A program made the translations under genes and the position numbers. DNA of 64,000 nt from assembly GCF_044324875.1 (NCBI RefSeq), contig NZ_CP172185.1, one strand, 5' to 3'. The stretch's first letter is position 1. Each line of letters opens with the position of its first letter. A model generated the notes under the pieces. The model saw only the letters and a list, made by a program, of their open reading frames with translations, searched no databases and was not told where the DNA came from. Positions 63,468 to 64,000 of this stretch are shown here, one piece after another. The stretch is from Escherichia coli (lineage in GTDB: Bacteria; Pseudomonadota; Gammaproteobacteria; Enterobacterales; Enterobacteriaceae).

Positions 63468-63543
63468 CAAATGCGCCTATAAGGCTCTCTTACCAGCCGC
63501 GCCCTAACAGGCGCACACGATCTGACATTTGCATCCAACTTCG

Positions 63544-64000
63544 TTACTTACGGCCCGTAAACGGGCTGCCCGGATAGGGAATCGATAACTGCTCTCCCAT
63601 TTTATCCTCTTCAAGCTGGTGCTTTATGTAATCCTGTATCTTCGCCGTGTTCTTACCCACCGTATCGACGTAATACCCTCTGCACCAGAACTCCCTGTTC
63701 CTGTATTTGAATTTCAAATCACCAAACTGCTCGTAAAGCATCAGACTGCTTTTCCCTTTCAGATATCCCATAAAGCCTGATACGCTCATTTTGGGCGGGA
63801 TCTCCACAAGCATATGGATATGATCTGCACAGCATTCAGCTTCCAGAATCCGTACACTTTTCCACTCACACAGCTTTCTCAAAATACAGCCTATTGCTCT
63901 ACGCTTCTCTCTGTAGAACACCTGTCTTCGGTATTTTGGCGCAAATACTATGTGATATTTACAGTTCCATCGGGTGTGCGCTAAGCTCTTTTCGTTCCCC
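63544..64000 (-). mobile_element. tnpA: IS200/IS605-family insertion sequence, tnpA (HUH Y1 transposase); start codon just beyond window edge
   Basis: Minus-strand reading frame open from 64000 to stop at 63544: ...GNEKSLAHTRWNCKYHIVFAPKYRRQVFYREKRRAIGCILRKLCEWKSVRILEAECCADHIHMLVEIPPKMS...GYYVDTVGKN... with the HxH (HIHML) motif and catalytic Tyr (GYYVDT). Confidence 0.85.

What the first reader, a model, noticed from the sequence alone, without database searches (positions are those of the whole stretch)
63468..64000. IS200-family element immediately downstream of the ynfM terminator
A Y1 HUH transposase gene (HIHML and GYYVDT motifs) occupies the last ~460 bp on the minus strand, with its start just past the window edge. 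K-12 has asr next to ynfM and carries no IS200, so this is strain-specific mobile DNA. IS200 elements transpose rarely and are used as lineage markers. The hairpin CGGCCCGTAAACGGGCTG just 3' of the tnpA stop is consistent with the structured IS200 end.
Basis: partly seen in the sequence, partly recalled or inferred. Interest (0 to 1): 0.35.

Follow-up and report, generated by a model that had tools for sequence, protein, structure and literature searches.

The report
Known IS200C copy beside ynfM
The last 566 bases of the window are most of an ordinary, already catalogued 711-bp insertion sequence (IS200C) that has landed three bases after the ynfM stop codon.

Summary
Confirmed: a Y1 HUH transposase gene (PF01797, E 1.6e-37) lies on the minus strand at 63544-64000; only two bases of its ATG are beyond the window. 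It is IS200C, found in 3067 of 5426 complete E. coli genomes.

Corrections:
1. The element starts at 63435, not after 63468. The "ynfM terminator" hairpin (63444-63462 plus T5) is the IS right-end hairpin. The native terminator hairpin (GTCCGGA-N16-TCCGGAC) lies beyond the IS in occupied genomes.
3. The catalytic tyrosine is Y125 (QDYIKHQ), not GYYVDT.
4. Only 8 of 5426 genomes carry an IS at this site. Their flank haplotypes and IS alleles do not co-vary, and a genome with a flank identical to the window's over 2900 bp has an empty site. It is therefore not a clean lineage marker.

In passing: in 130 of 137 distinct insertion sites (E. coli, Yersinia pestis IS1541, other taxa) the left end abuts a hairpin plus T-run that looks like an intrinsic terminator (controls 1 of 130). 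This fits the ynfM location. The completeness of this copy cannot be seen in the window. Ordinary; low interest.

The parts
63435..64000 (-). IS200C insertion sequence: 566 of 711 bp, from the right-end (RE) terminus to the window edge. The remaining ~145 bp (two bases of the ATG, the 5'UTR/art200 region and the left end) would lie at 64001-64145.
   Evidence: 100% identical over 566 nt to a full 711-bp copy at another locus (L003). Megablast against copies in unrelated contexts. Occupied versus empty site comparison. RE terminus defined from 18 copies.
63544..64000 (-). tnpA, a Y1 HUH transposase of 152 aa. The stop codon is at 63544-63546. The ATG is at 64000-64002, with only its G inside the window.
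   Evidence: Pfam PF01797 E 1.6e-37. PDB relatives 2ec2, 2f4f, IS608 TnpA 2a6m/2vjv (1e-18) and ISDra2 TnpA 2xm3 (4e-16).
63814..63822 (-). Codons for the HUH motif H61-I62-H63.
   Evidence: Aligned to the DHIH of IS608 and ISDra2 TnpA; sequence.
63616..63630 (-). Codons for catalytic Tyr125 (63628-63630) through Gln129 (63616-63618), motif QDYIKHQ.
   Evidence: Aligns to Y127 and Q131 of IS608 TnpA. The roles of Y and Q are stated in PMC6006769.
63444..63462 (.). RE subterminal hairpin CCTCCGGC-ATA-GCCGGAGG (8-bp stem). It is followed by T5 (63463-63467) on the + strand and by ATATTTATT on the - strand.
   Evidence: Present in every IS200C copy whatever the context, and in Y. pestis IS1541. 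DNA fold z -4.3 and -4.6, with 0 of 200 shuffles as good. Scored terminator-like on both strands. Unique in the window.
63435..63443 (-). RE terminal 9 nt (ATATTTATT on the tnpA strand). The element ends here and the next base varies between copies.
   Evidence: 18 copies end in ...GGAGGATATTTATT and are then followed by T, C, G or A.
63472..63515 (.). Interior RE inverted repeat TGCGCCT...AGGCGCA, enclosing a further stem.
   Evidence: Fold of 63435-63546: z -4.32. Conserved almost base for base in Y. pestis IS1541. Its function was not tested.
63429..63434 (+). ynfM stop codon TGA (63429-63431) plus the three A residues that remain of the target T/A-tract. This is the junction with the IS.
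   Evidence: The empty site reads tga-aa|aataa-gtccggac. The window, MEW and AHB3 carry one extra A at this junction.
63553..63566 (.). It lies inside the last eight tnpA codons and is not a significant structure.
   Evidence: for its position.: -5.4 kcal/mol, z -0.58, with 47 of 200 shuffles as good.

Best explanation
Window 63435-64000 is the tnpA-distal 566 bp of a 711-bp IS200C element, with tnpA on the minus strand.

Insertion site (shown by occupied versus empty comparison): the element sits, without target duplication, inside the T/A-tract of the bidirectional terminator between the convergent genes ynfM (+) and a small KPN_01571-family ORF (-). On the tnpA strand the empty site reads GTCCGGA-N16-TCCGGAC TTATT|TTTCA. 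The IS left end (GTGCACAGAAAACCCCC...) is joined after TTATT, and the right end (...CCGGAGGATATTTATT) is joined to TT(T)TCA, the complement of the ynfM stop.

Mechanism (inferred from family knowledge): TnpA is a dimeric Y1 HUH enzyme with H61, H63, Y125 and Q129 as active-site residues. It binds the subterminal hairpins of one DNA strand, excises a single-stranded circle and pastes it 3' of a short T-rich target, the 'peel and paste' pathway worked out for IS608 and ISDra2.

Local consequences (inferred, not tested):
- The native terminator hairpin is moved 711 bp away from ynfM.
- ynfM transcripts now meet the IS right-end hairpin plus T5 about 13 nt after the stop codon. This looks like a competent intrinsic terminator.
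- The left-end hairpin (nt 12-34) is documented in Salmonella IS200 to stop ~80-85% of incoming transcription. It would shield tnpA from read-through from the small ORF.

Target choice (shown as an association): elements of this clade sit almost without exception right after a terminator-like hairpin plus T-run, co-oriented with it. That accounts for the position 'immediately after ynfM'.
For: Identity:
- Pfam Y1_Tnp E 1.6e-37.
- PDB relatives with aligned HUH, Y and Q residues.
- 100%-identical DNA annotated IS200C in RefSeq, present in 3067 of 5426 complete E. coli genomes.
- TnpA identical to a protein listed in 6869 collection blocks.
- 87.9% nt and 143/152 aa identity to Y. pestis IS1541.

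Boundaries and target:
- Occupied L001 versus empty L002, L019 and K-12 differ by exactly 711 bp at tgaaaaataa|gtccgg.
- Ends defined from 18 independent copies.

Full-length architecture at this same site in seven fetched genomes (an eighth hit, H29, was not fetched): 711 bp. In L001, where it was scanned, the 5'UTR/STnc490 (art200) region scores 146 bits in Rfam.

Right-end hairpin: z about -4.5 and terminator-like on both strands.

Left-end terminator, SD-sequestering stem and art200 are documented for Salmonella IS200 (PMC4513863, PMC5435999).

Terminator-adjacent insertion: 18/18 E. coli, 53/54 Y. pestis and 59/65 other sites, against 1/130 for control DNA 200 nt upstream and 26/1370 for shuffles.
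Against: - The left 145 bp of this particular copy are outside the window, so its completeness is inferred from relatives, not seen.
- No transcription or transposition data exist for this copy, so the terminator function of the right-end hairpin for ynfM is a structural inference.
- IS200 is described as essentially dormant (PMC5435999), so the 'how it works' part describes a capacity, not observed activity.
- Terminator adjacency could partly reflect survival of harmless insertions rather than target recognition.
Confidence: 0.93

Rival explanations
1. One reading: the hairpin plus T5 at 63444-63467 is the native ynfM terminator, and the IS begins only beyond it (at or after 63468).
For: On the + strand it looks like a textbook intrinsic terminator 13 nt after the ynfM stop.
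Against: - The same hairpin and the following sequence occur at 100% identity next to tnpA in unrelated loci such as rnb, luxS, ldr and mgtT, and in Y. pestis IS1541.
- Empty-site genomes, including K-12, have no such hairpin after ynfM. They go straight to GTCCGGACTGCGG.
Confidence: 0.01
2. The copy in this window is a fragment or a rearranged remnant (for example lacking its left end) rather than a complete IS200C.
For: The window ends inside the start codon, so 145 bp are unseen. IS200-type tnpA genes are reported to decay often (PMC6006769).
Against: - The 566 visible bases are identical to a full copy (L003).
- The ORF is intact and its product is the commonest allele.
- All seven fetched genomes with an IS at this junction carry a full 711-bp element.
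Confidence: 0.05
3. History rival: the insertion is a single ancient event inherited by descent, and so a clean lineage marker. Absence elsewhere would be due to precise excision, and IS allele differences to gene conversion from other copies.
For: - Same nucleotide position and same orientation in all nine cases.
- Precise excision is a property of this family (PMC2806898).
- Ec-2939, B19374 and 510016 share nearly identical flanks.
Against: - The window's 2900-bp flank is identical (0 mismatches) to AF40, which has an empty site. It differs by 21-53 mismatches from all seven fetched occupied genomes.
- S1-ESP-03-A and ST3 have identical flanks, but their ISs differ at 6 of 711 positions.
- ST3 and MEW have near-identical ISs (1/711), but flanks differing at 32/2900 and a different junction (4 versus 5 A).
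- A strong target preference makes repeated hits on one terminator plausible.
Confidence: 0.25
4. Terminator adjacency is not target recognition. It would be the result of purifying selection: TnpA inserts at any T-rich pentanucleotide, and only harmless intergenic insertions after terminators survive.
For: - The few pre-insertion IS200 targets described are simply T residues in A/T-rich DNA (PMC1360685).
- The IS608 paradigm needs only a 4-5 nt target.
Against: - 130 of 137 sites carry a hairpin ending 3-10 nt before the junction, always on the same side and in the same orientation.
- Promoter-side and other intergenic T-runs are essentially unused.
- 53 of 54 sites fit in Y. pestis. From my own knowledge, other ISs interrupt many genes there and selection is weak.
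- Tandem IS1541 copies use the RE hairpin plus T-rich tail of another copy as the target.
Confidence: 0.3

Closest known systems
IS200C (E. coli member of the IS200 group, IS200/IS605 family), as annotated by NCBI PGAP
   Same: The 566 bases are 100% identical to copies annotated 'IS200/IS605-like element IS200C family transposase'. It is a 711-bp element with a single 152-aa tnpA and the same left and right ends.
   Different: Nothing detectable. Only the insertion site is uncommon: 8 of 5426 complete genomes.
Salmonella IS200 (707 bp; Lam and Roth; studied in PMC4513863 and PMC5435999)
   Same: Same organisation in the full copy L001 at this site, where the left end was read: left-end terminator hairpin at nt 12-34, an SD-sequestering stem-loop, and an antisense art200/STnc490 region (Rfam RF01405, 146 bits on L001). 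It has a single Y1 tnpA and no terminal inverted repeats.
   Different: 711 versus 707 bp. Nucleotide identity to the Salmonella reference was not measured here because no Salmonella copy was fetched. The regulatory features lie outside the window.
Yersinia IS1541
   Same: 87.9% nt identity over 709 aligned bases. TnpA is 143/152 identical. The right-end hairpin, the interior right-end repeat and the left-end hairpin are identical or nearly so. It shows the same terminator-adjacent insertion pattern (53/54 sites).
   Different: The first 9 nt differ by one base (GTGCCCAGA versus GTGCACAGA). Copy number is much higher in Y. pestis.
IS608 / ISDra2 (mechanistic paradigms of the family; PDB 2a6m, 2vjv, 2xm3)
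   Same: TnpA is homologous (E 1e-18 and 4e-16), with HUH, Tyr and Gln aligned. Both have subterminal hairpins, insertion 3' of a short specific sequence abutting the left end, and no duplication. The RE cleavage point is ~9 nt 3' of the hairpin foot here. IS608 is about 10 nt, from my recollection.
   Different: No tnpB. The target is a T-rich run preceded by a host hairpin, rather than TTAC or TTGAT alone. The guide-sequence pairing that defines IS608 targeting was not examined here.
Bacterial class C (IIC) group II introns
   Same: They insert just after intrinsic terminator hairpins (from my own knowledge of the literature, not checked here). This is the closest known case of a mobile element using terminators as landing sites.
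   Different: They are an unrelated retroelement mechanism (ribozyme plus reverse transcriptase). The resemblance concerns target choice only.

Membership tests
IS200/IS605 family, IS200 group | Encodes a Y1 HUH transposase (Pfam Y1_Tnp, about 150 aa). | tested here: met
   PF01797 E 1.6e-37, 128.7 bits against a cutoff of 23, covering profile positions 2-121 of 121.
IS200/IS605 family, IS200 group | Catalytic residues: HUH histidines, a single catalytic Tyr on the C-terminal helix, and a polar metal ligand 4 residues after it. | tested here: met
   H61/H63, Y125 and Q129 align to the HUH histidines (DHIH), Y127 and Q131 of IS608 TnpA. Residue roles are taken from PMC6006769.
IS200/IS605 family, IS200 group | tnpA alone (no tnpB), with an element of about 0.7 kb. 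| tested here: inconclusive
   The window shows 566 bp with tnpA only. Copies identical over that stretch, and all seven fetched copies at this site, are 711 bp with tnpA only. The far end of this copy is outside the window.
IS200/IS605 family, IS200 group | No terminal inverted repeats; subterminal hairpins at both ends. | tested here: met
   The right-end hairpin at 63444-63462 (z -4.3 to -4.6) is in the window. The left-end hairpin CCCCCAGCTAGGCTGGGGG is seen in the full copies. The two ends are unrelated in sequence.
IS200/IS605 family, IS200 group | Inserts without target duplication, with the left end abutting a short specific target sequence. | tested here: met
   Occupied minus empty is exactly 711 bp. 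The shared TTATT is explained by the T-rich target and the T-rich RE end. The last two flank bases are TT in 18 of 18 E. coli sites.
IS200 proper (Salmonella-type regulation) | Left-end bidirectional terminator (nt 12-34), an SD-sequestering stem-loop (nt 69-138) and antisense art200/STnc490. | not testable with these tools
   These lie beyond 64000 for this copy. In the same-site copy L001, Rfam RF01405 scores 146.1 bits against a gathering score of 56, and the hairpin occupies nt 13-31. Feature definitions come from PMC4513863.
IS200C (named isoform) | Near-identity to the ISfinder IS200C reference sequence. | not tested
   The ISfinder reference was not available. The name rests on RefSeq/PGAP annotation of 100%-identical copies.
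Active transposon | Demonstrated excision or insertion activity. | not testable with these tools
   There is indirect evidence only: polymorphic presence at this site and identical alleles at different loci. The literature calls IS200 nearly dormant (PMC5435999).

The most novel reading that the evidence does not exclude
IS200/IS1541-clade elements may not simply prefer T-rich DNA. They may recognise the single-stranded form of an intrinsic terminator (GC-rich hairpin plus T-tract) as a structural target that mimics their own right end (hairpin plus ATATTTATT). Three observations would follow from this:
- The ynfM / KPN_01571-ORF terminator has been hit at the same nucleotide in several E. coli backgrounds.
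- Tandem IS1541 copies form at right ends.
- Each new copy arrives pre-insulated from host transcription.

[quoted passage not shown] Older subscription literature that I could not read may describe this for IS1541. The structure-mimicry mechanism would be the new part.
Probability: 0.4. Interest if true: 0.45.

Novelty: already known. Interest (0 to 1): 0.18.

Why it matters
For this window it matters mainly for annotation. The IS boundary is 63435, ynfM has lost its native terminator and borrows the IS right-end hairpin, and the insertion should not be used uncritically as a lineage marker, because the site is occupied in several backgrounds while a strain with an identical 2900-bp flank is empty. 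More generally, the very regular placement of this IS clade after terminators (130 of 137 sites) fits its reputation as a harmless, transcriptionally insulated and long-lived genome resident. It also suggests a testable structure-based target rule for a Y1 transposase.

Tried and rejected
- Rfam scan of the window end. It gave only a sub-threshold partial match to Yersinia sRNA Ysr202 (27 bits against a gathering score of 315). The match covers just the right-end hairpin, so I read it as an IS1541 end inside that Rfam model, not an sRNA here.
- Promoter scan of 63200-64000 found nothing.
- Search for other IS200 copies in the window found none.
- The source genome was not found in the complete-genome collection. 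The best flank match, 99.6%, has an empty site.
- Literature searches for an explicit description of terminator targeting by IS200 or IS1541 found only the statistical preprint and the 'T residues in A/T-rich DNA' description. The family review (PubMed 26350330) is not held.
- 'K-12 carries no IS200' could not be tested for that single genome with these tools.
- My first, strict terminator detector (perfect stems only) under-called sites: 13/18 and 68/119. I replaced it with an MFE-based criterion.

Full report
**Observation**

The last ~570 bases of the window carry a minus-strand ORF. Its stop codon is at 63544-63546 and it runs to the window edge. The 151 visible residues match Pfam Y1_Tnp (PF01797) at E 1.6e-37, across the whole profile. 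Comparison with a full copy shows the ATG at 64000-64002, so only two bases of the gene are missing. The protein is homologous to solved Y1 transposases: 2ec2, 2f4f, IS608 TnpA 2a6m/2vjv at 1e-18, and ISDra2 TnpA 2xm3 at 4e-16. The catalytic tyrosine is not in GYYVDT. That stretch aligns to SCFISTVG of IS608, whereas IS608 Y127 and Q131 align to Y125 and Q129 (QDYIKHQ) here. The roles of these residues are given in PMC6006769.

**Identity**

Megablast of 63432-64000 against 5426 complete E. coli genomes finds the sequence in 3067 genomes, at a median of 1 and up to 35 places per genome. Many hits are 100% identical and annotated 'IS200/IS605-like element IS200C family transposase'. The TnpA sequence is the common allele, listed in 6869 collection blocks. 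The visible 566 nt are identical to a full 711-bp copy located downstream of rnb in another genome (L003). Against Yersinia pestis IS1541 the element is 87.9% identical in DNA, and TnpA is 143/152 identical. There is no second copy in the 64-kb window.

- Matches to IS copies in unrelated contexts extend leftwards to about 63433.
- Genomes without the IS match the ynfM flank only up to 63439.
- Occupied site...gcc tga aa|AATAAATATCCTCCGGCATAGCCGGAGGTTTTTC ... GGGGGTTTTCTGTGCACAATAA|gtccggactgcgg (L001).
- Empty site...gcc tga aaaataa gtccggactgcgg (L002, L019 and K-12 MG1655).
- The difference is exactly 711 bp.
- Eighteen copies in different contexts all start GTGCACAGAAAACCCCC and end ...CCGGAGGATATTTATT, followed by a variable base.

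In window coordinates the right-end (RE) terminus is therefore 63435, three bases after the ynfM stop codon. The 'ynfM terminator' (CCTCCGGCATAGCCGGAGG at 63444-63462, plus T5) is the subterminal hairpin of the IS right end. It is a strong structure (z -4.3 and -4.6, with 0 of 200 shuffles as good) and scores as terminator-like on both strands. A second conserved inverted repeat, TGCGCCT...AGGCGCA at 63472-63515, lies between the stop codon and the terminal hairpin and is almost unchanged in IS1541.

**The unseen part**

In all seven fetched genomes that carry an IS at this junction, the element is complete at 711 bp. An eighth hit, H29, was not fetched. In L001, the one copy read and scanned at its left end, the left-end hairpin is at nt 13-31 and a 124-nt match to Rfam STnc490 (the tnpA 5'UTR/art200 region) scores 146 bits. 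These correspond to the features described for Salmonella IS200: a bidirectional terminator at nt 12-34, an SD-sequestering stem-loop at nt 69-138, and the antisense RNA art200 (PMC4513863; PMC5435999). Completeness of the window's own copy is inferred, not seen.

**What the insertion did locally**

In empty-site strains ynfM (+) and a small minus-strand ORF (annotated as a KPN_01571 family protein) converge on one hairpin, GTCCGGA-N16-TCCGGAC. This hairpin is flanked by A/T runs, which gives a bidirectional terminator arrangement. The IS went into the T-tract on the small-ORF side, co-oriented with that ORF. As a result:

- The native hairpin now lies 711 bp from ynfM.
- ynfM is followed instead by the IS right-end hairpin plus T5.
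- Read-through from the small ORF would meet the IS left-end terminator.

These consequences are structural inferences. No expression data were available.

**Mechanism**

By homology (shown) and family knowledge (inferred), TnpA acts as a dimer on one DNA strand. It binds the subterminal hairpins, cleaves with Y125, releases a single-stranded circle and inserts it 3' of a short target abutting the left end, without duplication (IS608/ISDra2 paradigm; PMC2806898). The occupied versus empty comparison agrees with this: there is no duplication, and the apparent shared TTATT arises because both the target and the right-end terminus are T-rich. That also explains earlier reports of 'duplicated T residues' (PMC1360685).

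**Distribution at this site**

Only 8 of 5426 complete genomes have an IS between ynfM and asr. All those examined have the same position and orientation. The data do not fit a simple shared-ancestry marker:

- The window's 2900-bp left flank is identical to strain AF40, whose site is empty. It differs at 21-53 positions from the occupied genomes.
- S1-ESP-03-A and ST3 have identical flanks, but their ISs differ at 6 of 711 positions.
- ST3 and MEW have almost identical ISs but different flanks, and a different junction A-run (4 versus 5 A).

Either the site has been hit repeatedly, or excision and gene conversion have scrambled the history. I favour repeated insertion but cannot exclude the alternative.

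**Noticed in passing: terminator-adjacent insertion**

- In 18 of 18 distinct E. coli sites, the DNA abutting the left end is a GC-rich hairpin followed by a T-run ending in TT, with the upstream gene co-oriented.
They came from Y. pestis, several Vibrio species, Brenneria, Edwardsiella, Pluralibacter and Budvicia, and from MAGs labelled Mailhella/Desulfovibrio, Oxalobacter, Bacillota, Peptococcaceae and others.
- With an MFE-based criterion, 53 of 54 Y. pestis sites and 59 of 65 other sites are terminator-like. The rates are 1 of 130 for DNA 200 nt further upstream and 26 of 1370 for shuffles.
- Two Y. pestis loci show the left end joined directly to the right end of another IS1541 copy. The element's own hairpin plus T-rich tail therefore serves as a target.
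- I found no explicit mechanistic description in the held literature, but I could not read the older IS1541 papers or the family review.

**Verdict**

This is an already known element (IS200C) in an uncommon but not unique location. Interest is low. The terminator-targeting regularity is the only aspect that might repay further work.

Noticed in passing
L003-L012, L020-L029, L031-L150 (left-end flanks); window equivalent beyond 64145: IS200C, IS1541 and relatives sit immediately 3' of a terminator-like hairpin plus T-run, co-oriented with it. This holds at 130 of 137 distinct sites, against 1 of 130 for control DNA. The last flank bases have the consensus TTT(T/A)TT.
   Followed up: partly
L095, L143 (also L096 and L098, with left-end hairpins 710 bp apart), Y. 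pestis NCTC5923: Tandem IS1541 copies: the left end of one copy is joined directly to ...CCGGAGGATATTTATT of another. The IS right end therefore behaves like a target site.
   Followed up: partly
L001, L013-L019 versus window 60500-63434: The ynfM-asr site is occupied in at least four flank haplotypes, by IS alleles that do not co-vary with the flanks. Strain AF40 has a flank identical to the window's over 2900 bp but an empty site. The junction A-run is 4 or 5 A.
   Followed up: partly
window 63396-63467 (+): Sub-threshold Rfam match to Yersinia sRNA Ysr202 (27 bits, gathering score 315), confined to the IS right-end hairpin. The Rfam model probably ends in an IS1541 right end.
   Followed up: partly
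L031-L093: The exact 22-nt left-end hairpin of enterobacterial IS200 occurs, often about 100 nt from contig ends, in MAGs assigned to Desulfovibrionaceae, Oxalobacter, Bacillota, Peptococcaceae, Saccharibacteria, Elusimicrobia and Lachnospiraceae. The first 9 nt of the IS are lineage-specific in these. This could be real wide horizontal spread or binning artefacts; it was not resolved.
   Followed up: no
L001 4792-4863, L013 3793-3897 (beyond the window; between the IS and asr): A small minus-strand ORF annotated as a KPN_01571 family protein or hypothetical protein (23-39 aa depending on the record). It shares the targeted terminator with ynfM, and its T-tract is shortened by the insertion.
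   Followed up: no
window 63472-63515: A conserved interior inverted repeat in the IS right end (TGCGCCT...AGGCGCA), nearly identical in IS1541. It is not mentioned in the papers read. It is a possible TnpA-binding or RNA element.
   Followed up: no
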